From the NCBI GenBank assembly GCA_030141605.1, contig JAQGDQ010000036.1, positions 744,001 to 808,000 on the forward strand: a DNA stretch of 64,000 bases, written 5' to 3'. Shown one piece after another: positions 45,601-64,000 of the stretch. Position 1 is the first letter of the stretch; the number at the start of each line of letters is the position of its first letter. The notes beneath the pieces were generated by a model. The model was not told the DNA's origin. It did no database searches and saw only the letters and a program-made list of their open reading frames with translations. This DNA comes from Tubiluchus corallicola (lineage: Eukaryota > Animalia > Priapulida). Made by a program: the position numbers and the translations under genes.

Positions 45601-48600
45601 TATGATGAATTAGATTAACTGTACAAACTGAAACAATTTTTTGCAATCTGTCTATTTTTTTAGCATTTAGTTATAGCGCCAACTTGTGAAATGTTGGTTT
45701 GTACGAGAATTTTGGTAAGTTTATTGCTTTTGCAGATTTGAATGAATGTGATCCACCTGGTGCCTGTAGTCAAATGTGTGAAAACACTAAGGGGTCATTC
45801 ACATGTTCATGTGCATCAGGTTACACACTGGACAACAATAGAGTTTTCTGCAAAGCGAACAGTAAGTGTTTTAAAATTTTCACTAATAATTCTTTTGATT
45901 AAAATATTTAAGTCTGATGTTTTGTTCATTCATATTTAAGGAATGCCCAGAGATTTCAAGTAACATTTTTTTCACTGTAGATGTGACTGATGCCTACCTT
46001 GTGTTTTCAAATCGTAATAAGTTGATTAAGAGTAATTTGAGGCTGCAAGATACAGACAAGCTGCCGTTCAAAGTTCAGTATGCAGTTGGTATCAGTTTTG
46101 ATGTATCTACTGACATGATTTACTGGTCAGATCTTGAATCAAAAACGATAAGCAGAGCCTATATTAATGGAACTGGAGAGGAAAAGGTCAGTATAGCCAC
46201 TTTTCTTCATTAAATGCAATTGAAGTTATTTCACTCTATGGAAAGTTAATCTTTTGTTTTTGATAGTGCATAATATTTTCATGGTGCTAAGTGAGATGAA
46301 AGAGTAATTCATCTGTTCTTTATTGGAGAAATTTTTGAATGTGCTACCTCACAAGATCCATATTATAATATAATGTTGGATTTGTAATTCTACACCTACA
46401 CTTATTATTAGACACTGGAAAAAATAATTACTCAGTGACAATAATTAATATTTGTGAAATTATTAATTTTGCTGATTGTGTTAGTTTGTTCAGTGTATTA
46501 GTAGAGAAATGCGTGATATAATTAAAACACTAAAATTTGATATGATTGTTGCCTTTTAAAGGTAATAACCTCTGGCATAGATGTTGTTGAAGCTGTTTGT
46601 TTTGATTGGATTGGACGTAATCTATACTGGATTGATTATGGGCTGGAAACAATAGAGGCCTCTAACTATGATGGCAGCTACAGAATTGTTTTGCTTGATA
46701 AAAACATAACTAATCCTAGAGGATTTGCCATTGATCCAACTGAAAAGTATGTACTAGGTTATAATTTTTAAGCTGACGCTTCACCATTAATTCTAGTATA
46801 ATTTTCTATAATTGCTAATAATTCTTAATTTTAATCTTTGTATATCTTTTGGCACTGACAAATGTGAGTTCTTAATGTTTGTTCTTATCATTTACGGTTA
46901 ATCTTATTTCTTTGTTTCTTTCAAACAATGGAAGCTAGGCAGCTGTTATTGTTCACAGTGTGTTAGAGTAACTTTTAGTTATCTCATTTATCTAAATGTA
47001 AAAATCTAAAAAAATCTAAAAATTTATCATTACATTAGATATCACATTCTAGTTCATTTAATTCATTGATGTTTTTAGAGCAAGAGTAATGTTTTGGACA
47101 GATTGGGGTGATCATCCAAGAATAGAAAGAGCAGGTCTAGATGGCAGTAACCGTACCATCATTATCAACACCAAGATTTCCTGGCCAAATGGGCTTACTA
47201 TTGACTATCCGACTATGCGCTTGTATTTTGCTGACAGTCGCTTGGATTACATCGATTATTGCAATTACGATGGGACTGGCAGATACCAAGTTATTGCAAA
47301 TGATCATGTATGATTTTGTGTGTGTTGTAATGTTTTGTTGATGGTGTGGGGGCACTGAATGCACATTTTCATCAACCAAACCAAAGCCGGTTTTTTTATG
47401 CTTACGTGCCACCGAACCGAAGCTTAATCGAATGATCGGCCATGCTGCCGAACCGAATTCCGAATAAAATATCAAGTTAAACCAGACCGAAGCTGACCGA
47501 ATTTTTTACCGAAACTGGAGAGGAATTTTTCTTGCAACTTCAAATGAAAACAGTTATAAATTCTGTAATGTTTTATCATTTTAATTTAGTGGTGACTGGT
47601 GAGCAGTGTAAATTTGTTCTGATTACTAATTTAGTTTTACTATAAATTAATGTTATGTAGTACAGCATTAAGTATTTTAAAAGCAGCCCTAATTCTTTCG
47701 AAAATCGTTAAAATTATTTTGTATATTCAGTAAAAACATTATTTAAGCAAAACTACAATAGTATAATTGTTTACTAACTCAAGTTCTCGTTGATTTGTTT
47801 GTACATTGGTCATGTATGCCCAAATACAGTGCCGCTACACTTTGCCCCTTGATGCGGCTTCTGTATCGATGGTGCATCGCATTTTTCGAGTTATTATACA
47901 GAAACAGAAAGCAAAATGTCAGCTGTTGTGACGTGTTCACCATTTACTATCATTTTTTTCAGATTAGTTTTTATAGGCTTTATAGATAAATATTCAGTTT
48001 GCTTTAATGCAATTTTCCCAGAATTTGACAATTATTAAACAAAGTAACTTTGGTATACCGAAGGTTCTCCGAACCTTTGATAATTAGTACAGAAGTTTAC
48101 TGATCCGGATTTTTGATACAAATATTCCGGGAAAAATTCAGTGACCCGAATGTTCGGTGGTTCTCTCGGGGAACTTTATTTATTTTTTATTCTAACCATA
48201 ATTTTTGTATTTACATACATTTGTTGTTTAATTGTTACTGTCAGGTCATTCCCCACTTTCTTTTTACAAAATTCCCAACTTTTGAGGGCAAAAATGACTT
48301 TTGATTCTTAAGCCATTCATTGAAAGTTATACATTTGGATGAAAAATGGATTTTGTTTACTGTCTCTCTGCAAATACTGTTTATGTCACTAGGTTCTTGC
48401 CTTCATCACATATGTCAGCTTAACAGAAAAAGGTGGCAACTTTATTGTCAGATTAAACTTTGTTCAGACTTTCGTAATACTTTATTGATGTGTTGTATAT
48501 ATTGTAGTTCTTACAACATGTACATGCCATCACATTGTTTGAAGACAATATCTACTGGACAGATCGGGAGAGAAACACGGTCATGCAATGTAATAAATTC

Positions 48601-51600
48601 ACGTGTAATAACCAGACTATTGTGCAGCAAGGTCTGAACAAACCTCTTTATGTACAAGTGCACCATCCTGTTAGGCAGCCAGATGGTAAGATTTAATTTT
48701 TATAATCGGTTGTGTAATTAATTTTTATTGCTTTATATTTACTAGGGTTGTGCTAGATTGGTTGCAAATTCCCAGACTGAGCAATTTGAATGGTCCCAGC
48801 TTTAATCCTGATCTAACAGGAATTTTGTTAGATCTGCTTTTCTATAGCACAAATTTTTCAATTAAGGGCAAAGTTAGTCAGCATAAAAATACGCACAGCA
48901 GTCTAGTTACCTGAATAGTGTTAATTTCTTTAAAGAATTTGGAAGATTTCTATCAAAATGTTTAGAAATTTAGGAAATTGATTTTTTGTGCATAATAACT
49001 GCAGCGTCAGTAATACTGGTAATCTTCATACAATTGTTCCATGTGGTACGTAGTGTACAATGGTACAGCTAGTGCTGCGAAAATTTCTGTTACCTACTTA
49101 TTCAGCTTTTGACAGCAAAAGTATAGTTTAATGTTGTTTAGTTGTAAACCCAACATACACAGACTATGCTGTATGCATGTGCACGGTGTGTGAACTGTGA
49201 CTCGTGCTCACAACTATGGTATACTAAGCTTGAAAAAGCAAGTGCGGTGTTTTCATTTAAAAATTCTGAAGAAAAATGAAGCTTATGTTGCTAATTTGGA
49301 TTCGAACATGGATTCAATACAAACAGTTCTGTAATACTTGATCCTGTACAGCTTTAATATTTACTAAATATTCATTTTACAGTTATTCGTGTTTGCATTT
49401 TATAGGTCCTAATCCATGCGCAAATGAGCCATGCTCTTACCTGTGTCTACTTGCACCTGGCAAGCCAGGATATTCATGTGTATGCCCTGTTGGAATGATA
49501 GTTGATTCCCAGAAGTCAAGTTCTTGTGTCAATGGTAAACTAAATTGTGTTTTTTTCAATAATATACTGTTTTTTTTATTTTTTATTATATTTGGAATAA
49601 ATATTTTATATTAAAGCTTTCATAAGTGTGTATAAACAAAAGAGTGTCTTTGTCGTAAGAGTAGCTGAAATTTGTATGTGTCAAGATCAGCATTTAAAAC
49701 ATGTCTTTATACTAAAATTCTGTAACAGAATACTAATGTTCTGTATGCTGACTAGAAAGGAGCCTAAAATTTGCTTTTTATGGAAATCAAGAGCCTTTCA
49801 GTTGTCAGATTGATTTTTAATGAATAGTGGTTTCTGCTGTCTTTGAATTGATGCTTTGATTTGTAAAGAAGTTTGATAAAGTGTCCTGAATAAAATCTAC
49901 AACAAACTTGTATGTCTTTATTCTTGAAACAGAAGTAGTGAACACTATTAAACTAATAACTGTTTTTAACAGGTAAAAAAGAATAACTAATTTAACGACT
50001 ACAGAAATCAGCCAAAATTGTGTTTGTATTGGCAACATTTGGTCATGTTGATTTTTTTGTATGTTTACCTTTTTTTGTACATTTTCATCAGACACTACTC
50101 CATATCTTATGTACATGAAACGAGATCCTGGGAAGATTCTTGGCTTGTCAATGGATCCAGACACTAAGAACCCTTTTAACAATTTTGTTCCAATTACTGG
50201 CATTAAGAACATTCGTGATTTTGATTATGATTCTCGGGATGGCTGGATCTACTGGATTGAAACAGGAAAACCTGTAAATGGTCAAATTCCTGTAAGTAAA
50301 CAGTTTTAACTACTAGATTAGTTTTGGGTTTTGGGTTGAAGATTTCACATTGAGGTTGCAGATTGATATCCGAGTGATTTGTCATGTAATAGATGCCTTG
50401 TGCAATTTTTTGCTGCTGACAGAATTTAACATGATGATAACTTCAATATTTAATCATGATTTCCTCCCCCTCCTCTTTGCTGTCTTCCTCCAAGCGATAG
50501 GGATTCTGATTTGTTCACTGCTCTTGCCCGTGTCAGTGCCTAAGGCCCTAAGCCAATGATGTCAAATTAAAAGTGGTGAAAACGATTAATACTTCGCTCA
50601 ACTTTGAACCACAGCTGCTTACACAGAAAGCAAATGCAATTCCCATACACTAATGAATTATGCACATGAAATAATACTCCACTTATTGCTTACCTGCTGA
50701 AATGATCGATTGTCACTGTGCAGGCTGGGCTTCTTACTTTAATTTGACCTATTTTATTGCTGTAGTAAATGAGTGAATATTCCACTTGAAATGTTAGCAA
50801 CAAAATCACAATATTTAAGCATTTTATTATTCGTGAACAGTTTCTTTACATTCCAAGCTTATTTTTATTAGTAGGGGTTTAGCTGTTTTATTTTGAAAGC
50901 GGATTTTATATAAAATAACTTGTTTTTATGCTGCAATTATAGGATGATGAGGAAGCTCCATATTTGGTAATCAAAATTTGGTTATTTTGTTCCTTATACA
51001 AGATAGGTAACAATTGATAGACTGATAATTTGATAGTCCATTTTCAAGTGTTTATTTCATGGGAATGATACTGTAATATTGACATACCAATGGAATAATA
51101 TCCTATTCATCAGATTCATTATGTCGTGCAATATGTGATACAATAATATTATTTTGTACAAATGTAAGAACCTTGCCAGTGCTTATGAAATATTCAAAAA
51201 CAGTTTAGCAAGGAAAAGTTGCTTAACAGAAAAATGGTGATGCAGTCATAGAAAAAAATTATTCATGTGTAAACAGTAATCTAGTTATGTTTACCCATTG
51301 AATTGTACATTTTCAATTTTTCATCATCTGCAACCCCCTTGAATCTTACAAATTTCATTTTAGTTACTAAAGAATATTTGTTCTGTCTGTATGTTTGTAA
51401 GTGCTTTGTGTATCTATAGCAGTATTATGTTGGCTTTGCTCAAATAGCCACATTAAATTGATTCAACTCACCTTCTCTTTCCATTACAAACAGTGACTTG
51501 TCTTAAATCTATCTGTAAAGTTTTAGCTTTTTGTTATTTTTTGCAGTTTTAATTAATTATTTTTTTATTGTAGTCCATTATCAAACGAGTACGGTTTGAC

Positions 51601-54600
51601 GGCCAGAATATGACCACGTTTGACAATGGTTCTATCATCGGTGGCGGTGATAGGTTAGGACTGAATAACAAGTTTGGCTTAAATTCGGTCGCATTTGACT
51701 GGATTGGACGTAACCTATATGTAGCGAATCAGGCAGCTGGCAGAATTGAAATCATTAAAGTAGATGGGGATGTCAGGCGACATGCAGTTATCTTGGAGAA
51801 TAATGGGACAAGAAATAGTGTAGCAAATCCTGTAGCACTAGCAGTGGATCCTATCAATGGGTAAACACACCTTGAGCATGTATACTTTGATAGGAATTTT
51901 TGAAACAGATCCGATCAGTTACTCTTCTTGAATTTTTTCCTGATTACCGATTGCTGCTAAATGTAATTTTCCTCTGATCCACAGATCCGATTTGCTTCAA
52001 ATTGTGTCAAATTAGTCTCTATACTTTGTAGTGTCAGCAGATTCTTGCCTATAACTTGTAGATGTTTCAACAAGTTTTTCTGATCCTATCTTAGTTTTTT
52101 TTATACCATTCGATTGCCGGTACCCACTCATCAGCTTCTAATCACTGATACTTGATCAAATTGCAATACTTTTGAACAAAATTAGTTTATAAAAAAGCCA
52201 ACACATATTATTAGTTAATTGTTAATTTATGAACTATTTTTCATTTGTTTTCAGCAAACTATTCTGGCTAGATAATGGTGGTTCAGGAGTGCCTAGAAAG
52301 GTCGCAAAAGCTAATTTAGATGGATCTAGTGCTTCTGTTTTGGAGTCGTCAGGTTTACATGATTTGGATTACTTAACAATTGACTTGAAGGACCAGCAGT
52401 TGTACTACACAATGGATGATATGAGTTGGGTAGGTTTTCTCAAAGACATTAAGTTGTTTATGAAGTAATTCACTTTGGTTATGTGTTGCGTCCTTGCGTA
52501 TTGAGCAATAATTTTTTGATTTGGTAGCATAAGGGCGAAATTCCTTCTGTTATATTTAAAATCTGCAAATGAACAGTTTTATGTCTATCTTTCATTCCAA
52601 ACAAGCAATAAGTGTGGCTTAGGTTATTTGCAAGAATTCGAACTGTGTATGTGGCTGCAATTGATTCAATCTTATGAATTTTTAATTTAAATTGTTTCAA
52701 GTATGCAGACAGTTGTTTTGAGGGTGTTGAATTAAGTTTTGTTAATTAATGGACATTTAATGGAATTAGAGAAATCATTTATCACTAAATCAAACGTTAT
52801 AAAATGGTTTTATATAGAATCAGATTTTGTACATACATCAATTTATAATTTGAGTTTTTTGCTTATGAATATGATATGACAGTGTACAGTGTTATGCTTT
52901 AGCAGATAAAAAATAATAATTTGGCTATTCATGTTCTAATTGAATTTGTTTATACTAGTAAACTGTTAAACTGTTTTTTTTATAGATAGAGAAAGTTACA
53001 ACTGGAGGCCTGAATAGAAAACATTTGGGATTTGCTCAGAATATTGGCACACCAAAAGGTGTGGCTGTTTACAAGAATTTTCTCTATGCAGCTGACACTG
53101 CTTATGAGAAAATTAGCCGTCGTGGGAAAGAAAATGGCATTGATGATGACAAAGAGGTTGTTCTATTGAAAAACGAAAAGAATGTATTTCAGCTTCGAGT
53201 AAAGTACCAGCAAGAATGTAAGGAACTACTTGATTATATTTTTCGGTGATAAATTCTGATACTTTTATATGATAAATTTTTCTTTTTATATTATATACCT
53301 AATAATTTAGGTTTGACATTAAATCACATTTCCGAGATATTTCATGTCATATTAAATTAATACAAAAATATGTGAAAACAAACACAACAAGGCCAAAACA
53401 TGATTAATAAGCAGTGCCTTAACTTGCTTACCCGTTTCATTTAATTCTGTTTAGTAGCAATGAAAGTTTTCTATAAGTCACCCAGTAAACTGAATGTAAT
53501 ATAATCCGCTTAAAATAATTGTTTCAGTGATTAAAGATCATCCTTGTTTAACAAATAATGGTGATTGTGAGCATATATGTATTCCAAAAGATGGCGTTAG
53601 TAGAGTGTGCATTTGTGCAACTGGGTATACATTACAGAACCAGACACACTGCAAAAGTAAGTACTGCAAATGGCTAAAAATAATTAGTATATTGAATAAA
53701 GCATTTGTTTATTTTTTCTTATTTAAAACACTAGCAGAATAAAATGTTATCATTGTAACTCTAATTTAGTAATAATGAACTTACAGTGTTTTTGTACGTG
53801 TAATGAAGCAATTTACACTGTTTAGATCACACATCATTTATGGTTGTAAGCACACTGTCGGCAATTTCTGGGTATGCATTGAATTCTACAGGAAGTGAGC
53901 CAGCCATCATGCCCATTGGTGGAACACAAGGTATATGCATATATGTAAAGTAATTTACTTATAAAAAGTTTTTCTTATAATAGCAAGCTTTACATGATAT
54001 TGTTGGGATTATTGAAAACGTAGTTTCCTCACAGTGTGTTTGTTTGCTCTGTGATTTCTAAATTGCTTAAAAAAATTCATAGCATATAGGAAAAGATTAA
54101 ATTTGTATCTATGGTGTTAACATAAAATTCAGTTGATTTTTCAGGCCTGACAAAACGCCTTTACGTTATTTTTTGAAAATTAATTCCATGTGACATTTGT
54201 AATTTTTTTTACTTTGCTGTTCAGGCTTCCAAGCACTTCATGTTGATGTACATGTAAAGGAGGGCTGGATTTACTGGTGCAATTATGATCAGAAGGGTAA
54301 ACAAAATGCTATACGCAGAATACGTCCAAATGGATCTGACTATGAGGAGCTCGTTTCGACTGGCATTGGTAAAAATGGAATACGTGGCCTTGCTGTTGAT
54401 TGGGTTGCAGGTATGTTTTTTGAGCTTCACTGGATCCGAGTTCTGGACTTTCTTATGGATGTTGCTTGCCTTTAATAAATAACTGGGAAGCAAATGCAAA
54501 TTAGCACAAAAAGACGAAAAACATGCAATATTAATTATTAAAAATTTAACTCCGTTCTCGATATATTGTAGATCTATAAAAATCATGGTGAGCATAATTT

Positions 54601-57600
54601 ATTTGTAATCTTAGTTTTTAGTTTGTCCTTTAGATTTGTCCTTAAGCCTTCAAGAAGACCCCTGTCACGTTTTTGAAACTAAACATAGTCAAAAAGAAGA
54701 GGAATGTGTGGAAGTCAGGAGTGAAGCTTTGATTTCAAATTTGTTCTTTTTTGTCTTTATTCTTTCATTAGAAGGCAAGTTTCAATTTTTCGTAGGTAAT
54801 GTTTATTTCACTAATGCTGGTGGCATTTACACGCACATCGAAATGATGAAATTAAATGGATCAGATAGACTTGTTATTTACTCATCACGCAACGATGAGC
54901 CACGTCAACTTGCTGTCAATCCTGTCAAGCGCTACATGTACTGGTTGGATTATGGACAATATCCCAAGATTGTCAAAGCACTATTAGATGCTACTAACCA
55001 GACTGTGATAGCATCTGATAATGTAGTTATGCCACGGGATATTACGGTAGACATACTGACACATGATGTATATTGGATTGATTCTGAAAAAGAATGGATT
55101 CAGGTATTCATTTTTTATCTCATTACATTTTACTTTCAGCTTTTTTTACTTGAATAGTAGGGATTATTAATCAACATTTTTTATTGTTCTTGCTTTCTAT
55201 GCATGTAATGTATTGTATATTAATTGTCATTAAACTACAAAACTAACTATTATATAAACCCACATTTGTGGAAACTTGTCTAGAAAGAAAATTTGCAACT
55301 TTATTTGTTAGGGAGAAAAATGTTGTTGCTTTAATTCATAACATTTTTAAATGTTTTTTTATTCTTAGAGAGTGGACTATCTTGGTAACAACAGGCAAAC
55401 GATTAGAGAAAACATACCTAGTGGATTTGGTTTGGCAATCTACCTCAATGATGTCTACTGGGTAGATCGAAATTTAAAAAAGATTTTCCGTGCATCAAAA
55501 CTGCCTGGAAACACCAGTCAACCAACAGTTGTTAAAGCAGGAATAGAAAAATTGCGAGATATTGTTATCTTTGACCAAATTAATCAACCTAAGGGTAAAT
55601 GTTGAATTTGTTTTATAAAGTTTTTTCAATTTATTTAATGTTGTAAATTATTAGAGTGTTATTGGCATTTAATTTTGCTTTTAGCTTATAAATGTCATAT
55701 TAATACTATGAAATTACTTATTTTAGTGATAAATTTAATTTTTCATATTTTGTGCAGTTTTTATATTTGTTTAGAAATGAGATTATGCATACATATCATA
55801 TTTTTAGTTATTCACATTATTATCACATTAGTTATTAGTCTCCAAAAGGTCAGCATCAAGGCAACAAAACTATTATTTTGTTTAAACTATTGAGATTTCA
55901 CCTTGGTGAATAGATCAGAATAAATAGGTGTATTTTAAAAAATGAATATTAACTGAAAAAAGTGCAGCAGTAAATCAAAGTTTGTGCTAAAGTAGAAGGT
56001 TTTACGAAAGCTGCTACATGTTTCTTGTTTTTATTATAGAACTTTTGGCATATTTTTATGCAGAATAATCTTAACACATTTTTGGAGATTATATTTAATG
56101 AAAGCAATGTCGTTTTTTACAGGCACAAGTCTGTGCGTGTTTGCTAATGGAGGATGTGAGCAGGTTTGCTTCCCATTACCCAGTATATTTCCACGCTGTG
56201 GTTGTGTGGTTGGTAAACTTGCAGCTGATAAACGTCACTGTGAACGTAAGCATGGATACTTCTTTCAACAAAGTGGCAAATTATATGCTTTTCAATTCTG
56301 TTGTTTTATTGTTGTTTTTCTAGCAGTGTGTTACTTCTCATTAACTTTTTGCTGCCATTGTCACTGTATCATTGCCAATGCTTCGATGTTAGGATTTAAT
56401 GTCTGAAAAGTAGAGCTGGCAGTCAAATTAGAAAATTCGAACATTTGATTCGAATTGACATGAAACAAGTTCGATTCAAATCGAATATGTCTCCAAAATT
56501 TTAGAACTTCTTGCCTTTGCTGTTGTGAAAGTCTTAAAGTAGTCTTAAAGAAATTGCATCATTAAAATTCGAATTCGAAATTTTTGACTGAAGTGATAGT
56601 CGTAATAAAAAATACAATTTGTATGTAAGATTATTAAAATTTTGCATAAGTTATATTTTTTTCCATGAAAATTAGTAAATGAAATAAAATGATAAATAAA
56701 TAACGGGTTTCATTAAGAAGGCATGCCATGGCAGTAAAACTGAATACAAAGTGTGAATACAATAAAAATAGAGAAAAAAAGAGTCAAAAGACACAATGAG
56801 CAATAAAACAAGAAATTATTTAAGAGACATTGCTTACAAGATAAAAATTGGGAGAAATGACACAAAGTCAGCAAAACAGTTTAAAACTAATTGTGACACT
56901 AAATCTTTTACTATAATTTAGAAAGTAGTTCCTTGTTACTATATGTAGTTTTAATTACAACAGGCATTGCTAAATGTTTGTAACATTCTGTTCAAATTTT
57001 AGGCATGTCTAAAATTAGTAGAATTTCGTGTGATGAAGTAGGAAGCAAGTGTCTTTTGTCTATGATACTGGATAATATTAGAAGCAAAATTACAAGTTAA
57101 TTTTTGTGGATAATTTTTCCGATCAATCAGGTTCAGTTTATGTAAAGCATCATCATAAGAAATAAAATCTTTGCCGAAAATTATTCCACAAATTGTTTTT
57201 CGAATTTTTTCAATACTGGCAATTTGGGTTAGATTTATAAACGAGCTCCAAAAAGCATACTCTAAGACAGGGCGAGTATAAGTTGCATAGACACGAACTA
57301 GGTCTGATGTAGGAGATCCATATCTTTTTAATACAGAAACCATGAAAATTTGTTAACCTGCTTTAGCAGTAGTCTTTTCGATTTGGTGATCCCATGTAAC
57401 GATTTTAGCATTATTAAAGATATCGAAAACGTTGCACAGGTCTAAGACCTTAGTCAATGCATCATTAAAGTAAAGTAAGTTAATATTATTTTGAAGTTTG
57501 ATACCCAATAGTGTTGTAAAAGATTTTTAACAGGCACCTCACCATTAATTAGCATAGGAGGTTGACAGATCTGCTTGGATTAGTACAAAAATCAAAATGC

Positions 57601-60600
57601 ATGATACTGTTAGTGAATACACCGATGCCTTGTGTATAAAAACATTCTTTGTATTCTGTATAGATGCAGACGAGTATCTCATCTACACTACAGAAAACTC
57701 AGTACGCAGTGCATTCCTTGAACCAGGTGTTACCTCTAAGCCTTGGCCACCTGTTACAAAACTCAATGTATCTACCGCCATTGATCTTGATGCGAAGAAC
57801 AAGCGTATTTTCTTCTCGCGTAAGTAAGCTGCTTGCTGTGAATGACCGTTGTTTACAAAGTTTTATTGCAATGTATTTTTATGCATGTCATCAGCATTTT
57901 TGTTATACGGTAATATGTGTATGTCGTTTGTGTACTATTGTGGTTGCACTGTTTCGTAATGTGTTTTGCTTGTACATTTGTAATAACTAATTTGCAGAAG
58001 CACATGTCTTTTGTAAACAGTAAAGCTTAAGCACAAAAGACATGTTGCGTAATCTCTGCAATTCAAAGATTTAATTCAATGGAATTTAGAATTCCTCGAA
58101 AATGTACAAGTTCTGAGTTTAGTTCAGTTGTTTTGCTTGGAAACTTTGTACATTCATTGCACTGATTCAGATGCATAAATTCAGCCTGTGACGACAACTG
58201 ATCAGTGTTTAATGAAAGAAAGTTTTGTTTCTTTACAAGTATTCTTTAAATAATGGTCATATTTTAATACTGATATTCTAGGTTGCCTTTTTGGCAGTGA
58301 CAAGTAAATTTAATGAATAATTCAATCAATTTTGAAATGCTGGTAAAACCATTTTTTCCTTTACACTAAACTCAATCGTGGTGGAATAACAGCAGGCAGA
58401 CTTTACTATTGTCATTTATTATCAATAACTCTTGCTTTTACAGAAAGACTTTACAGCTTGGGAAAGCCTGATCCTCGTGCTAAAAATCCAACTATTAGTT
58501 ACTTCAAACTGGACGACCCCTCTCATGAAATAACACATATTCTAGTGAGAAGTAATCAAACAAGTATGTATTGTTGTGCTGTCTTTTACAGAACGACTAG
58601 GTACAGGTTTTGGAGCGATTGATGTGCGTTCTAAGGGCCCAACAATTAGCTACTTCAAACTGGACGATTCATCTCGAGAAATTAAACATATTTTAATTAA
58701 AAGTAACCAAACAAGTATGTATTGCTTTTGCCCTGTGCAGAAGAATAGTAATGTATTGACTGAAACTCGGAGCATGCGGAACTGTAAACATAACTGACGT
58801 TTTCGAAAGCTAACTAATGCATTTTCTTGGCTAACAGGTGGGGTACTTAAACAAATGTTAATGAACACTTTATTGAGAAAATTTTGACTTATTTAACAAC
58901 TTGGTGACATATAGAGATATGAAACTGCTTTTTGGCTTATCAGGCTGCATAACAAAGATTTTATAATTTATAATCTAGCTGCGCAATTGCAATAAAAATT
59001 TTATTCAGAAAGCTTTTACTTGTTAAACAGCTTGGGAACACATAGGGAGATATGCTGCTTTTTTTCTTATATTGCTACGGTTAATGATTATTGCATTCAT
59101 AATTTAGCTGCGCACACTTCAAATTTCACGGGATAATTGCATGTTAACTGATACACACTAATGCAACACTAACTCCATAAACCCTAATCTTTACATAAAT
59201 TATTAAAACTGCAATTCCTTAACTCATACTAAACTTACAAAATACATTTTTGTGTTCGTTTGCTGCGCCAGTCTCACAGTGAAGTGCATATCATGGTAGT
59301 ATAGCCACTGTGTTATGTGGCTTGAAAAATAAACAGAACTGCTTTGTGATTTGCAATTTTACATTGCTTGTCAATTGCTGTAATCTAGTGTAAAAAGGCA
59401 TTTGTATGGCCATTGGATTTTGCTTAGCTTCATAAATCGGCTCGTAATTTTTTATCAAGTGTTGTCATAATATAGAATACAGTAAAAATGTTGGCGAAGT
59501 AAACTTTGCTTCATATTAATGGTAATGCTTCTTTATAAGGCTTATTATAGAGCTTTTCCAGTTAGATGATTCTGTAAGCTCAATTCACCATTGGTTAATG
59601 TTGGATAAAATTTGTTACAAGATACATTGTTTTTTCTAAGAAGCAGAAATGGTGACAGTTATATATGTTAATTAGGAGCAGGAGAGCATAGTAACCTGAT
59701 ATTTGCCAGTGGTCTGGCTTATGATTGGATTCATGATCGTCTGTACTATACCGATGTGGATGCTAAGGAATTAAATGTCATGAGTATGAATGGAACTCGA
59801 TTAAGTAACCTTGTCACTGGTTTAAAACCTCGTGGTATAGTGCTCGATCCATGTGAAGGGTATGACATCATTTTGTGATATTTTTAAACTTTCACAGATT
59901 AAAAATCTATTTTGTTTTGTTTGCTTTGTTTTGAAATTTACCTGCGTAAGTCTACCTAGAGATTTTGTGATATCATTGTTTTTCTTTTTACATTGCTAGT
60001 TGTTATTCTAGTATTGTAGCAGTTGCTTTGATTTACAAAGTATGCTTAGATCATTGAGAGGAGAGCTATGCAAAGTTTGTTTCTTGAGATTTAATTAAGT
60101 GCTTGTATGAAAAAATGCTAGGGATCAGTGTTGCAGATGAAGATAAATTCATTTATTGTTCCAGTCTTGTGTCATAGTATATGTCTTCTTGATTTTATAA
60201 CTTTGTCTTCCGATCATTTGGTTTATCTGGTTTCTACAGTCTAAAATAAACTACAGGTCACACAGCCAAAAAGGTTGTGCTCATCTCTTAAAATTTTAGC
60301 GTTATCTTTTACTACTACCTCTAGTCGAGAGGTGGAAATGTTACAATGTCCCAAGGACTATAAGTAGGCAGCCGTGATGGTCTGGGGGGTTGCAGTAAAG
60401 CCCTGGAGGTTTAGTGGCAAAACCTTTTAAAAATTTGAAAAGTTGGACTTCTAAAATGTCAAGTATGTTAGTTATTAGTATTTTCATCACACATATTTTC
60501 ATTGACAATGCAGCCATTACATCATCATGAATGTTGATTAACATTAGAAATAGATTTGTGATTTAATGTGACGATTATGGTGACGATCGGCATAATATGA

Positions 60601-63600
60601 CTTTGCTACCTTATGTTAGTTACTGTTCATTGAAATTTCTTAAACCTATGCTAAGAAAGGAGCCCACGGTTCTGTTCCGCTTACTTAAATCACTCTTCTG
60701 TCGTTTTGCTAGGATGCAGTATGAAAACAGTCTCTCTGCACAATGCCTCACTCATCTAAACGCTTATTATGTTCGATGTTGCTTAACTACTGAATGCAAT
60801 ATTTATGAGTGCTAAAAAGTATTTATTGTGACATTTCTAAGAAACTGAGACACCTTCTGGTTGGTGTCTAGCCTAGGTGGCAAGGCCACTTGTCAGGGTA
60901 ATTATAATTCGAAGCCAGATTCTGAAATCAACTGTCGTCACCTTCCATTTTAAAGTTTTAAACTGTCATGTGACACTTGAAATTTTAGTACTGTTGCCTA
61001 AGACTCAGGAAGGGTGCTGAGTAGCCAGCAATAAATGCTGTTGCAAAAATTAATACATTTTAACTTCATAGTAGCAGGCCTATGTGAACTAGATCTAGAT
61101 CTAGATCACCACAATAAACTGCATAATTATGCACAAATGCCTAGACAAACGTTGTACTGCTGCCGAATCGGCAAGTGGTTTTATTAGCAAGAGCACAATT
61201 AGAAACTGGTGCATGCATGCATGCCCCTCTCCCCAAAAAAGTAATAATTGCATTGTAATATTCGATTTAGGTGAACATTAGACTGTGAAACAGTTCTGCA
61301 ATCTTTGCTAAGAAAGAGACGAAAGGATCGAAACTTTTTTCCATTAAAAACTTGAAGAAGTAAAAATTCGTGCCCAGTCATTAGAAGTCCGCCAGTCAGC
61401 AAAGATTTTCCCTGCTTTAATGCCTAAAATAATTTGGCTTCACCCAATTTAGAGTTTAAATAAAAGAAGTAAAAAAATGGTAGTTTGTAAGTAGTGATTT
61501 TCCATTTTATTTTTCTTGTGTTTTTAACAGCCTTCCATTTTCTTTCTCTCAAAAGCAATTCTTTTGTAGAATAGTAAAAGCAAGAATTTCCATATTCAGC
61601 CATTTAACTTTATTTTTTTTATGTTTATTAGATTATAATCAGTTTCTTTCAATGTAGCGCGAATGCAAGAATCGCTGATTATAATTGACTAACATTTATA
61701 GGTACATGTACTGGTCTGAGTTATTTTTGGGAAACAGCAAAATCTACCGTAGCACTCTTAGTGGCTCACAAAGAGAACTCATAGTTGGCAGTGATGTGAA
61801 ATGGCCAGCTGGATTAGCTATAGACTGGGAAGATCGCAAACTTTACTATGCTGACCATGCCTTGTAAGTTTTACATTTCTTTATTTTTTGACGATGTTTG
61901 GTGATATTTAATCGACTATCACAGCTAAAGTTATTCTACTGTGATTTACAGTGGATACAGCTCAAGGGGTTTTGCAAACCGTATGCAAATTCTTTCATTA
62001 ATATTGAATTAAAGTTGCCCATTATCACCTAATAGTAAAAATAATTGAGGTCATGCTTAGCTAGTTTGTCTTTTAAAATCTGGAGCAACTCACTTTCTGT
62101 AATGATGTTTGTTATAACTAAGGTCGATACTGTACTACTACTAGCCACATAACAGTTTTCCTTCCTTATTTATCATTTATATTCACAATTACAAAATTAT
62201 TAGGGTGTTTTTCGAGCCAAATTTAAACTACTTTTGTTCACTTTAACGAAAGAAATAAGTGAGAGTAATGTTAAACAGTCAATGGTAAGATTTGGACTTT
62301 GATCACTTGCCGGCATCTTAGATTGCAAGACTCGTAAGGCTCGTACTAAGGTAAATCCTTTCTCGACGTGTTAGTTGACTGGTCATTTTTAGGATTGAAT
62401 TGAGGTTTGTCGTGATCGCAAGGGATTATGCAGTCTAGTGCAAAACACTCGGGCTAATATGAAATTCTGTCTTGGTCCCACTTCTTCACATTTTTTTGTT
62501 TAGTGATATAGTGTATTCGATTTATCACACCTGCTGATTCTCAACCTAAGTTCGCATTTTATCTACTTTAGCTGAACCTATACTTTATAAAAGCTAAACT
62601 ACAAAATTAAATAGATGCTTTTCAAAGGTGTCTCTACAGGAAGCTATTACGTATCAAATGGTCTGGTAGAATATCTCAATAATGACCTTATGATTTGGTG
62701 AAGCAAAATCCTTGGAGCAAATACATCCAAGTAAAAACATTGGATTAGACAAGTGCTAAATTGCCACTGAAATCCATAGCATTACACAAAAAAACACTTG
62801 AATTATCAACAATAATTGCTCGTTCAGCCGGGTCAACTACTGATGTATGTAGAAATGCAAAAGGATTTTCGCAAACACAACTCTAGATTTGGTGGAAGTG
62901 CATTGTGGGCAGTGGCAGATAGGATGGCCTAAAATCAACAAGTATGACCTGCCATGTTTTAGTATATAAAGGCACAGCAATATCACCTTCTGTTTCAATT
63001 ACTGATTAGAATATCCAGATAGTAAAAAATCCATTGAACTGTCAACTCTATTCGTGACACAAAAGTAACAAGCGTTATTATTTGCTTATTTTTTTATGTA
63101 GACAGAAAATTGAAAGGATGGACTTGAATGGCAGCAACAGAGAAATCATTTTGCAAAATGCTATCAAACCATCACAAGTAAGTGATAAATATTTTTAGCC
63201 ATAACTTCAGATTTTGCTTGTAATTTAATGGCTGTTAGTGTGATTGCAGTAAATGGTGTTTGCTAGTGTAAGTAAACAAGAAAATGGAATCCTGAATGTC
63301 TATATATGTTAGATATAAAGTTTGTAAACAATATTTTGGTGTATAGGTGGTAATTTGGAAACAGTACATGTATTGGACTGATCGCGAGAACAATGCCATA
63401 TACAGAGCTAACAAATACACTGGGGCAAACATTGAAGTCATAGAACATGATATTACAAGTGAGCCTATGGATGCACGGCCATTTGACATGAAGCTTTATT
63501 CTGCTAAACAGCAGAAATGTATGTTATTTTCTTTTGTTTTTTTTAATTGCATGTAAATTCTTAAGACAATTCATATATGCAAGTAGGCTATTTGCAAACA

Positions 63601-64000
63601 GTTTTTTCATTCATGAAAACTGTTATGTGCTTTTAAATTCTAAAGGGCAGTGTTGTCAGTTTTTTTTTGTACTTAACAAAGGTAATGTTACTGCTTGCTC
63701 CAAGAACAATGGCGGGTGCATCAATGCTTCATGCCATGAGGCCCCAGGTGGAAAGACAACTTGTTCCTGTGAAATTGGAAAGAAACTGGTAAATGAAGGA
63801 AAGATGTGTGTCCGTATGTATATACCTCATTAATTAATCTTTGGTCACAGGCACTATGATGCAAAAACATAATTTGGCTATGACAATGATTCAGCAGTGT
63901 CTTAATTGTTGACAAATACTGTTGTTTAAATTTATGTATGTGTGTTTAACTAATGCATGTGATAATTATTTGATATTTTTTTTAATTGTGTTTATCACAG
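12572..64000 (+). CDS. LRP2: LDL receptor-related protein 2 (megalin)-like gene, 5' half, 53 exon positions in view, continues past the window end
   Basis: Architecture: signal peptide, LDLa x8, EGF x2, YWTD propeller-EGF x2, LDLa x8, EGF x2, YWTD propeller-EGF x4. A large first ligand-binding cluster fits LRP2 (7 repeats in human) rather than LRP1 (2). All junctions are GT-AG and phase-consistent, and the window ends on an acceptor-like tttatcacag. Confidence 0.88.
13246..13311. repeat. ~31-bp tandem duplication
   Basis: tacattaaaacata(t/a)acaatt(t)ataatactgtaca occurs twice in tandem. Confidence 0.75.
16050..16560 (-). mobile_element. Highly decayed CR1/L2-like reverse transcriptase remnant in intron 1
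   Basis: Minus-strand motifs [18 protein letters not shown] (RPIS-like) and CLPQGSACG (GVPQGS-like) appear in RT order, broken by indels. Confidence 0.4.
20606..20737 (+). CDS. LRP2: LRP2-like exon, LDLa 1
   Basis: [36 protein letters not shown]. Confidence 0.9.
20790..20924 (+). CDS. LRP2: LRP2-like exon, LDLa 2 (8 Cys)
   Basis: [43 protein letters not shown]; preceded by a 52-nt intron. Confidence 0.88.
23702..23824 (+). CDS. LRP2: LRP2-like exon, LDLa 3
   Basis: [37 protein letters not shown]. Confidence 0.9.
24911..25039 (+). CDS. LRP2: LRP2-like exon, LDLa 4
   Basis: [39 protein letters not shown]. Confidence 0.9.
25671..26400. mobile_element. Old hAT-like non-autonomous element
   Basis: Degenerate TIRs (catggcagagatataccacaggg..ggggcaac vs reverse complement cagggacaaatttacaaggg..gggacaac) flanked by near-identical 8-mers aatttaac / aatctgac. 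Confidence 0.5.
27272..27391 (+). CDS. LRP2: LRP2-like exon, LDLa 5
   Basis: [36 protein letters not shown]. Confidence 0.9.
27725..27853 (+). CDS. LRP2: LRP2-like exon, LDLa 6
   Basis: [37 protein letters not shown]. Confidence 0.9.
28484..28597 (+). CDS. LRP2: LRP2-like exon, LDLa 7
   Basis: [34 protein letters not shown]; final Cys codon split across the intron. Confidence 0.9.
29022..30238. mobile_element. Mutator (MULE)-like non-autonomous element containing a nested CR1 fragment
   Basis: 9-bp TSD ggttctgcc (29013-29021) / gattctgcc (30239-30247); TIRs gatttaggtccgtttcgcagaaa vs reverse complement gaggtagactcatttcccagaaa; subterminal ttctgggaaa repeats. Confidence 0.6.
29388..29763 (-). 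mobile_element. CR1-like LINE 3' fragment
   Basis: Minus strand [40 protein letters not shown] (CR1 TRGHSLKL / FSNRVV..WNSLP motifs) followed by an (AATAA)n-like tail. Confidence 0.8.
31680..31802 (+). CDS. LRP2: LRP2-like exon, LDLa 8
   Basis: [36 protein letters not shown]. Confidence 0.9.
32161..32280 (+). CDS. LRP2: LRP2-like exon, EGF
   Basis: [36 protein letters not shown]. Confidence 0.9.
33000..33125 (+). CDS. LRP2: LRP2-like exon, calcium-binding EGF
   Basis: [38 protein letters not shown]. Confidence 0.9.
33179..34601. mobile_element. Possible Kolobok-like non-autonomous element
   Basis: Ends ttag|AGGTCCACTGACACCC and GAGTGCCTTAGAACCT|ttaa are imperfect inverted repeats at TTAA-like sites; GTGACATC motifs recur internally. 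Confidence 0.4.
34931..35094 (+). CDS. LRP2: LRP2-like exon, propeller 1
   Basis: PRLIFSRRK...[12 protein letters not shown]. Confidence 0.9.
35731..35851 (+). CDS. LRP2: LRP2-like exon, propeller 1
   Basis: IFSVNIDG...[15 protein letters not shown]. Confidence 0.9.
35999..36098 (+). CDS. LRP2: LRP2-like exon, propeller 1
   Basis: [33 protein letters not shown]. Confidence 0.9.
36150..36503. repeat. Compound (TA)n/(TATG)n/(TG)n microsatellite hosting the 5S copy
   Basis: Simple repeats directly visible at 36150-36246, 36311-36334 and 36476-36503. Confidence 0.85.
36352..36471 (-). rRNA. 5S rRNA: 5S rRNA copy, 120 nt, probably a pseudogene or SINE head
   Basis: Reverse complement GCCTACGGCCATATCACGTTGAAAACACCGGTTCTCGTCTGATCACTGAAGTTAGGCAACATAGAGCCTGGTTAGTACTTGGATGGGGGACTGCCTAGGAATACCAGGTGCTGTAGGCTT. 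Helix I pairs (GCCTACGGC/GCTGTAGGC) and the internal A/C boxes are recognisable, but several changes look like CpG decay and there is no oligo-T terminator. Confidence 0.85.
36642..36842 (+). CDS. LRP2: LRP2-like exon, propeller 1
   Basis: YLFYCDRG...[13 protein letters not shown]...YNGENR. Confidence 0.9.
37022..37236 (+). CDS. LRP2: LRP2-like exon, propeller 1
   Basis: [18 protein letters not shown]...YHSLRQMP. Confidence 0.9.
37355..37501 (+). CDS. LRP2: LRP2-like exon, EGF
   Basis: [17 protein letters not shown]...[18 protein letters not shown]. Confidence 0.9.
37659..37871 (+). CDS. LRP2: LRP2-like exon, propeller 2
   Basis: EFLVFS...KWIYYAD...IHPDGTG. Confidence 0.9.
38254..38449 (+). 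CDS. LRP2: LRP2-like exon, propeller 2
   Basis: [17 protein letters not shown]...[11 protein letters not shown]. Confidence 0.9.
38628..38878 (+). CDS. LRP2: LRP2-like exon, propeller 2
   Basis: [12 protein letters not shown]...WPNGLSID...RLYWCD...HPFSLVVYK. Confidence 0.9.
39111..39257 (+). CDS. LRP2: LRP2-like exon, propeller 2
   Basis: [20 protein letters not shown]...KVYSIDQQP. Confidence 0.9.
39440..39724 (+). CDS. LRP2: LRP2-like exon, EGF + first LDLa of cluster II
   Basis: [16 protein letters not shown]...[35 protein letters not shown]. Confidence 0.9.
40355..41339. mobile_element. pogo/Tigger-like (Tc1/mariner) non-autonomous element
   Basis: TA-flanked TIRs CAGTAAGTCCTCGCTTAA and TTAAGAGAAGACTTACTC (15/18 match as inverted repeat). 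Confidence 0.7.
41454..41570 (+). CDS. LRP2: LRP2-like exon, LDLa
   Basis: [36 protein letters not shown]. Confidence 0.9.
41869..41988 (+). CDS. LRP2: LRP2-like exon, LDLa
   Basis: [36 protein letters not shown]. Confidence 0.9.
42121..42220 (+). CDS. LRP2: LRP2-like exon, LDLa (split by a phase-2 intron)
   Basis: [30 protein letters not shown]. Confidence 0.9.
42379..42515 (+). CDS. LRP2: LRP2-like exon, LDLa
   Basis: [45 protein letters not shown]. Confidence 0.9.
42796..43386. mobile_element. Helentron/HINE-like non-autonomous element
   Basis: TTAAGATTCTGC at 42796 is inverted against GCAGAATCTTAA at 43326 and 43375; terminal perfect hairpin TAAGATTCTGC-tatat-GCAGAATCTTA (43359-43385); internal AAGTTTGG..TAGTTTTGGAG motif. 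Confidence 0.45.
43930..44055 (+). CDS. LRP2: LRP2-like exon, LDLa
   Basis: [35 protein letters not shown]. Confidence 0.9.
44927..45052 (+). CDS. LRP2: LRP2-like exon, LDLa
   Basis: [38 protein letters not shown]. Confidence 0.9.
45217..45345 (+). CDS. LRP2: LRP2-like exon, last LDLa of cluster II
   Basis: [37 protein letters not shown]. Confidence 0.9.
45442..45564 (+). CDS. LRP2: LRP2-like exon, EGF
   Basis: [37 protein letters not shown]. Confidence 0.9.
45736..45861 (+). CDS. LRP2: LRP2-like exon, calcium-binding EGF
   Basis: [30 protein letters not shown]...CKA. Confidence 0.9.
45981..46186 (+). CDS. LRP2: LRP2-like exon, propeller 3
   Basis: AYLVFSNR...DMIYWSD...NGTGEEK. Confidence 0.9.
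46562..46746 (+). CDS. LRP2: LRP2-like exon, propeller 3
   Basis: VITSG...[11 protein letters not shown]...[11 protein letters not shown]. Confidence 0.9.
47079..47307 (+). CDS. LRP2: LRP2-like exon, propeller 3
   Basis: [21 protein letters not shown]...RLYFAD...ANDH. Confidence 0.92.
47346..48167. mobile_element. Degenerate hAT-like MITE
   Basis: Clustered (A)CCGAA subterminal repeats at 47370-47515 and CCGAA/TTCGG motifs at 48050-48165, ending ttcggtggttctct. Confidence 0.5.
48508..48685 (+). CDS. LRP2: LRP2-like exon, propeller 3
   Basis: [17 protein letters not shown]...HHPVRQPD. Confidence 0.9.
49406..49534 (+). CDS. LRP2: LRP2-like exon, EGF
   Basis: [29 protein letters not shown]...SCVN. 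Confidence 0.9.
50092..50291 (+). CDS. LRP2: LRP2-like exon, propeller 4
   Basis: PYLMYMKR...[15 protein letters not shown]. Confidence 0.88.
51574..51860 (+). CDS. LRP2: LRP2-like exon, propeller 4
   Basis: [10 protein letters not shown]...[13 protein letters not shown]...ALAVDPING. Confidence 0.9.
52255..52429 (+). CDS. LRP2: LRP2-like exon, propeller 4
   Basis: [24 protein letters not shown]...QQLYYT. Confidence 0.9.
52986..53217 (+). CDS. LRP2: LRP2-like exon, propeller 4
   Basis: IEKVTTGG...[15 protein letters not shown]...KYQQE. Confidence 0.9.
53528..53656 (+). CDS. LRP2: LRP2-like exon, EGF
   Basis: [16 protein letters not shown]...[16 protein letters not shown]. Confidence 0.9.
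53826..53930 (+). CDS. LRP2: LRP2-like exon, propeller 5
   Basis: [18 protein letters not shown]...AIMPIGGTQ. Confidence 0.85.
54225..54410 (+). CDS. LRP2: LRP2-like exon, propeller 5
   Basis: [16 protein letters not shown]...[12 protein letters not shown]. Confidence 0.9.
54796..55103 (+). CDS. LRP2: LRP2-like exon, propeller 5
   Basis: NVYFTN...[14 protein letters not shown]...DVYWIDS. Confidence 0.92.
55369..55594 (+). CDS. LRP2: LRP2-like exon, propeller 5
   Basis: RVDYLG...[17 protein letters not shown]...FDQINQP. Confidence 0.9.
56123..56245 (+). CDS. LRP2: LRP2-like exon, EGF
   Basis: [14 protein letters not shown]...[16 protein letters not shown]. Confidence 0.9.
56680..57590 (-). 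mobile_element. Decayed CR1/L2-group LINE fragment (RT C-terminus + 3' UTR)
   Basis: Minus strand [51 protein letters not shown], a typical RT C-terminal signature, ending in a (TTTA)n-like tail near 56680-56703. Confidence 0.85.
57664..57819 (+). CDS. LRP2: LRP2-like exon, propeller 6
   Basis: [14 protein letters not shown]...[14 protein letters not shown]|gtaagt, phase 1. Confidence 0.9.
58444..58563 (+). CDS. LRP2: LRP2-like alternative exon A (mutually exclusive candidate)
   Basis: ttttacag|[40 protein letters not shown]|gtatgt, 120 nt, phase 1-1, open. Confidence 0.8.
58592..58714 (+). CDS. LRP2: LRP2-like alternative exon B (mutually exclusive candidate)
   Basis: ttttacag|[41 protein letters not shown]|gtatgt, 123 nt, phase 1-1, open. 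Confidence 0.8.
59676..59859 (+). CDS. LRP2: LRP2-like exon, propeller 6
   Basis: [17 protein letters not shown]...[12 protein letters not shown]. Confidence 0.88.
61702..61863 (+). CDS. LRP2: LRP2-like exon, propeller 6
   Basis: YMYWSE...[18 protein letters not shown]. Confidence 0.9.
63102..63177 (+). CDS. LRP2: LRP2-like exon, propeller 6
   Basis: [25 protein letters not shown]. Confidence 0.88.
63347..63518 (+). CDS. LRP2: LRP2-like exon, propeller 6
   Basis: [21 protein letters not shown]...YSAKQQK. Confidence 0.9.
63682..63813 (+). CDS. LRP2: LRP2-like exon, EGF
   Basis: [39 protein letters not shown]. Confidence 0.88.

What the first reader, a model, noticed from the sequence alone, without database searches (positions are those of the whole stretch)
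58444..58714. Tandem duplicated exons 28 nt apart: candidate mutually exclusive splicing switch in a megalin beta-propeller
Seen: two homologous open exons (120 and 123 nt), both phase 1-1, with the same acceptor (ttttacag) and donor (gtatgt). The C-terminal halves are conserved ([20 protein letters not shown], partly through synonymous changes such as AGT/AGC and AAT/AAC), while the N-terminal loops differ ([13 protein letters not shown] vs [14 protein letters not shown]). The 28-nt spacer is far shorter than the smallest intron I traced in the gene (52 nt). Its only candidate branch adenosines lie within exon A's donor sequence, and retaining it would shift the frame. Established: very short spacers enforce mutual exclusivity sterically, and YWTD propeller loops of LDLR-family receptors take part in ligand binding and pH-dependent release. 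Inference: the gene makes two receptor isoforms that differ in one exposed loop after the first YWTD-like motif of propeller 6. I know of no such exon pair in vertebrate LRP2.
Basis: partly seen in the sequence, partly recalled or inferred. Interest (0 to 1): 0.8.

Follow-up and report, generated by a model that had tools for sequence, protein, structure and literature searches.

The report
Either-or loop exons in invertebrate megalin
An invertebrate gene for the cargo-uptake receptor megalin carries two intact versions of one exon only 28 bases apart, likely too close to be joined, so each message would use one or the other and swap an unusually long loop predicted to lie on a cargo-binding face; the splicing trick is known from other genes.

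Summary
Exon A (58444-58563, 120 nt) and exon B (58592-58714, 123 nt) are open, phase 1-1 duplicates with normal splice sites, 28 nt apart, in an LRP2/megalin gene of a non-arthropod protostome. Their shared half encodes two beta-strands and is under purifying selection (dN/dS 0.14, p 0.002). The divergent half is a 15-16 residue loop, against 5 in a modelled homologue, on the same face of propeller 6 as its peptide pocket. The conserved pocket acid is Ser here. Joining A to B would stay in frame, so decay cannot police it. The spacer is far shorter than the shortest other intron (52 nt), so steric exclusion is the likely lock, as in C. elegans egl-15 (14 nt) and let-2 (30 nt). No RNA contig covered A or B and no relative's copy was reachable, so use of both exons is inferred, not shown. 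This scan noted the same short-spacer layout in other genes of other genomes, not in megalin. Verdict: a new member of a known kind, moderate interest.

The parts
20554..63812 (+). LRP2/megalin gene, 5' part (about 52 exons; runs on beyond the window)
   Evidence: collinear with horse LRP2 aa 16-2584 in 37 chained hits; 50-exon spliced model without stops plus two further LA-repeat exons; groups with protostome LRP2 outside arthropods in a quick tree
57664..57819 (+). upstream exon, ends in the first YWTD-like motif (RIFFS) of propeller 6, phase 1 donor
   Evidence: donor scores above 41 of 46 others
58444..58563 (+). exon A, 120 nt, phase 1-1
   Evidence: acceptor above 21 of 46, donor above 29 of 46 leave-one-out scores
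58446..58490 (+). variable loop of exon A (15 residues, 3 Pro), predicted strand 2-3 loop
   Evidence: strand positions from homologue model
58552..58556 (+). candidate branch point for exon B (GTAAT, A58555), inside exon A
   Evidence: consensus match only, and the branch motif is weak in this gene
58564..58591 (+). 28-nt spacer: donor of A fused to acceptor of B
   Evidence: 26 of 28 letters match B's donor flank (22 nt) joined to A's acceptor flank (9 nt), score 43 against at most 34 in 150 controls
58592..58714 (+). exon B, 123 nt, phase 1-1
   Evidence: acceptor above 37 of 46, donor above 29 of 46; folds alone as a disordered N-half plus two strands, residues 17-24 and 29-36 (pLDDT 66)
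58594..58641 (+). variable loop of exon B (16 residues, Gly-rich), predicted strand 2-3 loop
58432..58439 (+). 8-nt word before exon A that recurs after exon B (58722-58729); possible duplication microhomology
   Evidence: 2 of 46 other exons reach 8 nt in the same test, so suggestive only
59676..59859 (+). downstream exon (matches mouse LRP2 2464-2520); Ser codon 59708-59710 stands where LRP2 has the pocket Asp/Glu
   Evidence: contig of run X2 begins at 59676 and fits a spliced product at both ends; Asp/Glu in 37 of 37 propeller-6 rows

Best explanation
Exons A and B are a tandem duplicate inside an invertebrate megalin gene and are likely spliced mutually exclusively, because the 28-nt spacer between them is likely too short to be cut out, which would give two receptor forms that differ mainly in one long loop predicted to lie on the peptide-binding face of propeller 6. 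Shown in the sequence: two open 3n exons with normal splice sites, an in-frame A+B product, a frameshifting retained spacer, and constraint on the two shared strands. Inferred: A's donor and B's pyrimidine tract and likely branch point (inside exon A) overlap in about 40 nt, so the factors that define A and those that define B cannot sit there together and the message takes one exon. Skipping both would delete two strands of a blade and keeping the spacer would trigger decay. Inferred more weakly: propeller 6 lines the central cage of the megalin dimer, so the Pro-rich loop of A or the Gly-rich loop of B would tune access to or affinity for cargo there.
For: Anatomy. Splice sites of both exons lie within the range of 46 other introns; no other donor shares the spacer's first 10 nt (0 of 46) and no other acceptor its last 9 (0 of 46), yet A and B share both. 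Shared half: pS 0.48, pN 0.10, dN/dS 0.14, Fisher p 0.002 over 25 codons. Simulation gives the observed pattern in 443 of 60000 runs with both copies constrained and 64 of 60000 with one copy neutral since duplication, about 7 to 1. Shortest other intron 52 nt, next 96, of 46; median 385 of 49 modelled. Introns under about 30 nt are reported in animals only for myxobolids and a dicyemid, whose median introns are that short (PMC13644364, abstract). In C. elegans five clusters with spacers under 40 nt all have 3n exons, and the 14- and 30-nt spacers were never seen excised (PMC4165533, section 6). Loop position: in the model of homologue P0033, which matches the megalin head (E 1e-96), strand 2 is 696-701, a 5-residue loop follows, strands 3 and 4 are 707-712 and 721-725, and the pocket Glu731 opens the next strand 1. 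In an up-down blade these two ends share a face. Rat beta6 binds peptide in the cage through an Asp/Glu-Arg pair and Asn2555 (PMC11145282, section 6).
Against: No transcript was seen to contain A, or B, or to avoid both. The 7-to-1 simulation ratio is modest, rests on 25 codons and cannot exclude recent loss of one copy. The loop half has dN/dS about 0.8 over 11 uncertainly aligned codons, which fits relaxed constraint as well as adaptation. Conservation in relatives is unknown. Intron lengths come from one gene, not the genome. The human ectodomain structure showed no ligand density at P6 (PMC13463032, passages), and the pocket Asp/Glu is Ser and the Asn2555 position Ala here, so this propeller may bind little. 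My spliced aligner chose B with a weak donor (58719) and acceptor (59709) because homologues are shorter; those sites score below 46 of 46 and 45 of 46 others.
Confidence: 0.7

Rival explanations
1. One copy (more likely B, with the stronger acceptor) is used almost always. The other is a spare that was functional for part of its history or is shielded by the short spacer, so no second isoform matters.
For: B acceptor 10.5 against A 7.3. One-neutral simulations still give the pattern in 64 of 60000 runs against 443. A short spacer makes a silent duplicate harmless. The loop half is near neutral.
Against: Both copies keep an open frame, a 3-nt rather than frameshifting length difference and matching splice flanks, despite pS 0.48. 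A's acceptor is mid-range, above 21 of 46.
Confidence: 0.21
2. The 28-nt spacer is a real micro-intron and both exons are included, adding two extra strands or a surface hairpin to propeller 6.
For: A+B is in frame and open. The spacer has a good donor and acceptor. Introns of 22-27 nt exist in some parasitic animals (PMC13644364, abstract).
Against: No other intron under 52 nt in 46 and a median of 385. The spacer's only internal adenosines lie 3 and 7 nt from the donor. The span between the two motifs would be about 90 residues, against 29-58 in 37 homologue rows.
Confidence: 0.03
3. The pair mainly regulates receptor amount: A's acceptor used with B's donor keeps the spacer, gives a stop at 58620 and sends the message to decay.
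For: The retained form has an early stop, and two weak internal acceptors also exist.
Against: It does not explain amino-acid constraint on both copies. Retention is expected as a by-product under the main model too.
Confidence: 0.04
4. Assembly artefact: two alleles or paralogues of one exon were joined in tandem.
For: The one DNA-like run that spans the pair may be the source sample.
Against: One contig reads straight through A, the spacer and 97 nt of B. A and B differ by pS 0.48, whereas X1's spanning contig differs from the window at 1 of 583 letters and X2's downstream-exon contig at 8 of 187.
Confidence: 0.02

Closest known systems
C. elegans mutually exclusive exon clusters with too-short intervening introns: egl-15 5B/5A (14 nt), let-2 9/10 (30 nt), bet-2, gly-5, gly-6 (PMC4165533; passages and section 6 read)
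   Same: Spacer below the minimal intron size; exons of 3n length, so decay cannot remove a double-inclusion product.
   Different: There the exclusivity was tested by RT-PCR; here it is inferred. Different genes and phylum.
Human steric-interference clusters (57 clusters, 9%, donor to branch point under 50 bp) and the LRP8 candidate cluster (PMC5740500; passages and 10 supplementary files searched)
   Same: Steric criterion met. LRP8 shows that a candidate mutually exclusive cluster is listed for an LDLR-family gene.
   Different: LRP2, LRP1, LRP1B and LRP4 had 0 hits in those files. The LRP8 rows shown encode cysteine-rich repeats, not a propeller loop.
Vertebrate LRP2/megalin, propeller 6 of the head and beta-cage (PDB 8em4, 8jut, 8jx8; PMC11145282 abstract, passages and sections 6 and 8; PMC13463032 passages)
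   Same: Collinear domain order over 2,580 residues; the downstream exon's best match is 2464-2520; the pocket Arg is kept.
   Different: The strand 2-3 loop is about 10 residues longer and comes in two versions; the pocket Asp/Glu is Ser and Asn2555 is Ala; no duplicated exon is listed for human LRP2 in the catalogues searched.

Membership tests
Tandem duplicated mutually exclusive exons | adjacent homologous exons of similar length and the same phase | tested here: met
   120 and 123 nt, phase 1-1, 67% identical in alignment A1
Tandem duplicated mutually exclusive exons | each exon has working-looking splice sites and keeps the frame alone | tested here: met
Tandem duplicated mutually exclusive exons | transcripts contain one or the other, never both | tested here: inconclusive
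   runs X1 and X2 laid twice; no joint across the pair was listed
Tandem duplicated mutually exclusive exons | both copies under purifying selection or conserved across species | tested here: inconclusive
   dN/dS 0.14 between copies and a 7-to-1 simulation ratio; no relative's copies retrieved
Steric-interference subtype | donor-to-branch distance under about 50 nt, or spacer below the minimal intron size | tested here: met
   whole spacer 28 nt; shortest other intron 52 of 46; the minimum is from this gene only
Decay-enforced subtype | double inclusion shifts the frame | tested here: not met
   A+B is in frame
Docking-site/selector (RNA-pairing) subtype | conserved competing complementary intron elements | tested here: inconclusive
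   a few 10-13 nt inverted repeats, slightly above shuffles (4 to 14 of 200 reach the observed count); none places a shared site against both exons; conservation untestable
U2/U12 incompatibility subtype | flanking introns of different spliceosome type | tested here: not met
   all flanking sites are ordinary GT-AG with gtaagt or gtatgt donors
LRP2/megalin | LRP2 domain order (LA clusters, EGF repeats, YWTD propellers) and orthology | tested here: met
   collinear chain scores 1977 for horse LRP2 against 997 for carp LRP1; groups with snail, Seison and arthropod-side LRP2 at SH-aLRT 97 in a quick tree, the careful search unfinished
LRP2/megalin | propellers 7-8, transmembrane helix and NPxY tail | not testable with these tools
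   beyond the window end; no genome held
Peptide-binding YWTD propeller (Asp/Glu-Arg type) | Asp/Glu on one blade paired with Arg on the next | tested here: not met
   Ser in place of the acid, Arg kept; Asp/Glu in 37 of 37 homologous rows, many redundant

The most novel reading that the evidence does not exclude
This lineage rebuilt propeller 6 of megalin: it lost the canonical peptide-gripping acid, grew a long loop over the same face, and duplicated that loop's exon as a unit so tight that the copies were exclusive from birth. Splicing now switches a lid or self-ligand inside the dimer's cargo cage, giving A/A, B/B and mixed receptors with different cargo ranges. This would be a splicing switch at the cage of a giant LDL-receptor-family protein, which my searches did not find described.
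Probability: 0.2. Interest if true: 0.65.

Novelty: new member of a known kind. Interest (0 to 1): 0.42.

Why it matters
Megalin's breadth is usually explained by many weak sites on one fixed protein. A spliced loop at the cage-facing side of propeller 6 would show cargo choice being tuned by isoform, and would give a natural pair of variants for asking what that propeller does, a point on which the rat and human structures differ (ligand density at propeller 6 in rat, none in human). The spacer, almost wholly explained as the two flanks of one ancestral exon, is also a clean example of how an exon duplicate can be tolerated at once. The splicing mechanism itself is well known.

Tried and rejected
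No whole genome is held. Sequencing runs: no RNA holder listed. Run X2 (RNA is a guess) laid 3 records on 54000-64000 and 1 on 57600-59900, none on A or B; this blank is no evidence either way. The 6 unaligned letters before 59676 in its contig cannot tell A from B, which end in the same 7 letters. Relatives of the exons: B against proteins of 71-2000 aa, 0 of 1 candidates scored; the A+B alignment against 21-70 aa, 0 of 1; the downstream exon against 106-2000 aa, 0 of 12; metagenome contigs, 0 of 52 pattern matches confirmed; no look-alike stretch in the scan's other genomes. An 81%-identical relative of a nearby exon exists (P0029, unnamed, 6,276-nt contig), but its DNA could not be read, so conservation of the pair stays open. 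A third decayed copy: an acceptor-like site lies 26 nt after B's donor (58740, score 7.1), but neither flanking intron aligns to A or B better than shuffles (113 to 252 of 300 reach the score). RBFOX word TGCATG: 2 copies in the flanking introns, 19 in 33,447 nt of the other introns, P 0.23, rejected. No other duplicated exon pair among the 50 modelled exons; the other off-model hits are two ordinary LA exons. A branch-point consensus could not be sharpened: YTRAY in 19 of 49 introns. The first MAFFT alignment suggested that Seison and P0057 share the long loop; on the unaligned sequences I read their extra length as lying in later loops, so I dropped that link. The spliced isoforms were not folded; only exon B alone and homologue P0033 were. 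Literature: 'mutually exclusive exons' with 'megalin' gave 1 unrelated listing; searches listed no LRP2 exon pair (listings only); PMC8373072's one supplement had 0 hits for six LDLR-family names; PMC9013439's main text had 0. Drosophila catalogues and subscription journals were not searched, and stored supplements may be cut.

Full report
Observation. The sequence shows exon A at 58444-58563 (120 nt), a 28-nt spacer at 58564-58591 and exon B at 58592-58714 (123 nt), both phase 1-1, with acceptors ending ttttacag and donors gtatgt. Between the exons 57664-57819 and 59676-59859, A alone, B alone, neither, and A+B all read open; A+spacer+B shifts frame and stops at 58620. A and B match at E 1.6e-13 and no other stretch of the window comes close. 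A contig of run X1 reads through A, the spacer and 97 nt of B with 1 difference in 583 letters. X1 may be the source sample.

The gene. The downstream exon's best PDB match is mouse LRP2 2464-2520. The window is collinear with horse LRP2 residues 16-2584 in 37 chained hits, scoring 1977 against 997 for carp LRP1. A spliced alignment gave 50 exons and 2,683 residues without a stop; two more LA exons lie off the model. A quick tree of 36 rows (the careful search did not finish) puts the protein with snail, Seison and arthropod-side LRP2 at SH-aLRT 97, outside the 16-row clade that holds the insects. The host is therefore likely a non-arthropod protostome; the branch is long and its place unsure. 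In human LRP2 residues 1307-2698 hold P3-P6 (PMC13463032, passages), and rat Asn2555 is in beta6 (PMC11145282, section 6), so the pair lies in propeller 6.

Are both exons alive? Scored against the gene's 46 other introns, the donors of A and B rank above 29 of 46 and the acceptors above 21 (A) and 37 (B) of 46. My aligner had ended B at 58718 and resumed at 59710 because homologues are shorter. Those sites score below 46 of 46 and 45 of 46. Its 5 listed differences, of 8, are all synonymous. Over the 25 shared codons pS is 0.48 and pN 0.10 (dN/dS 0.14, Fisher p 0.002); over 11 loop codons, uncertainly aligned, dN/dS is about 0.8. A low pairwise ratio can come from one constrained copy, so I simulated. 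The exact pattern (5 residue changes, 6 synonymous codons, no stop) arose in 443 of 60000 runs with both copies constrained and 64 of 60000 with one neutral since duplication. An earlier tail version with fixed rates gave 15,596 against 291 of 60000. This favours two working exons modestly and cannot exclude recent loss of one.

The lock. Both exons are 3n, so decay cannot remove an A+B message. The spacer is 28 nt, while the shortest other intron is 52 nt (20738-20789), the next 96 and the median 385. Animal introns under about 30 nt are reported only for myxobolids and a dicyemid (PMC13644364, abstract). The spacer's adenosines are at positions 3, 7, 25 and 27. When B is chosen, A is intron, and a GTAAT candidate at A58555 lies 37 nt before B's acceptor. 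A's donor, B's pyrimidine tract and that site would then crowd into about 40 nt; that the factors for A and for B exclude each other is inference from general spliceosome knowledge. The layout equals the five C. elegans clusters with spacers under 40 nt, all with 3n exons (PMC4165533, section 6), and meets the under-50-bp criterion of 57 human clusters (PMC5740500, passages). RNA pairing and an RBFOX word were tested and gave nothing firm.

Origin. 26 of the spacer's 28 letters match B's donor flank (22 nt) joined to A's acceptor flank (9 nt), score 43 against at most 34 in 150 controls built from other exons' flanks. An 8-nt word flanks the pair on both sides, a length reached by 2 of 46 other exons. 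This fits a duplication that was short, and so exclusive, from the start. A longer duplication followed by a deletion would look the same.

What is swapped. Exon B alone models as an unstructured first half and two strands (17-24, 29-36; pLDDT 66). In a model of homologue P0033 (pLDDT 78.5), which matches the megalin head at E 1e-96, strand 2 is 696-701, a 5-residue loop follows, strands 3 and 4 are 707-712 and 721-725, and Glu731 opens strand 1 of the next blade. The conserved half of A and B is thus strands 3-4 and the variable half the 2-3 loop, 15 residues in A and 16 in B. In an up-down four-stranded blade the 2-3 loop and the start of strand 1 share a face. PMC2716378 (passages) places loop 2-3 on the top face of Asp-box propellers and says most propellers bind there; that the YWTD motif ends strand 2 is recalled and agrees with the model. 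The span between the two motifs is 51-52 residues here, against 29-39 in 35 of 37 propeller-6 rows and 58 in 2 rows of one cluster (41 rows, 4 from other propellers dropped, many redundant). Rat beta6 grips peptide in the 30-40 A cage through an Asp/Glu-Arg pair and Asn2555. Here the acid, present in 37 of 37 rows, is Ser, the Asn position is Ala and the Arg is kept. Against a strong role, the human ectodomain showed no ligand at P6. The loop may tune, cover or replace the pocket; none of this is shown.

What is missing. No transcript evidence on A or B, and no relative's copy of the pair. The direct test stays open.

Comparison and verdict. It works like, and on all features testable here belongs to, the steric class of duplicated mutually exclusive exons; the defining transcript test was inconclusive. 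LRP2 had no hit in the human catalogue files searched, though LRP8 is listed with a candidate cluster. Paper searches listed no LRP2 pair; supplements may be cut, and fly catalogues were not searched. The scan's notes hold the same short-spacer layout in other genes of other genomes and large exon arrays in this genome's Dscam; these are unchecked notes, not support. Verdict: real, likely two isoforms (0.7), a new member of a known kind, interest 0.42.

Noticed in passing
window 59708-59710 and exon 61702-61863: The pocket Asp/Glu of propeller 6 is Ser and the Asn2555 position is Ala; run X2 keeps the Ser through a synonymous change.
   Followed up: yes
window 58715-58740: An acceptor-like site (score 7.1) lies 26 nt after B's donor, echoing the A-B spacer, but no third exon copy follows.
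   Followed up: yes
window 58456 and 58606: Weak internal acceptors in A (would shift frame) and B (would trim 5 loop residues in frame); both score above only 2 of 46 real sites.
   Followed up: partly
window 59676-59700: A second insertion of about 10 residues after strand 4 of the same blade, also seen in snail, Seison and P0057 LRP2.
   Followed up: no
window 41454-41570 and 20790-20924: Two LA-repeat exons that the horse-guided model skipped; the LA clusters may differ in repeat number from vertebrate LRP2.
   Followed up: partly
window 56999-57352, minus strand: A 117-codon frame in an intron that looks like a fragment of a LINE-type reverse transcriptase tail (recalled resemblance; no Pfam hit); run X1 shows raised, repeat-like depth nearby.
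   Followed up: partly
window 1225-6969, plus strand: Low-complexity open frames (Ser/Thr-, Arg/Asp-rich, one with an FPPLP motif that recalls LARP4-type proteins) suggest exons of a separate upstream gene; no Pfam hit above cut-off.
   Followed up: partly
window 58002-58045: A 13-bp hairpin in the intron upstream of A; 14 of 200 shuffles reach one such repeat.
   Followed up: partly
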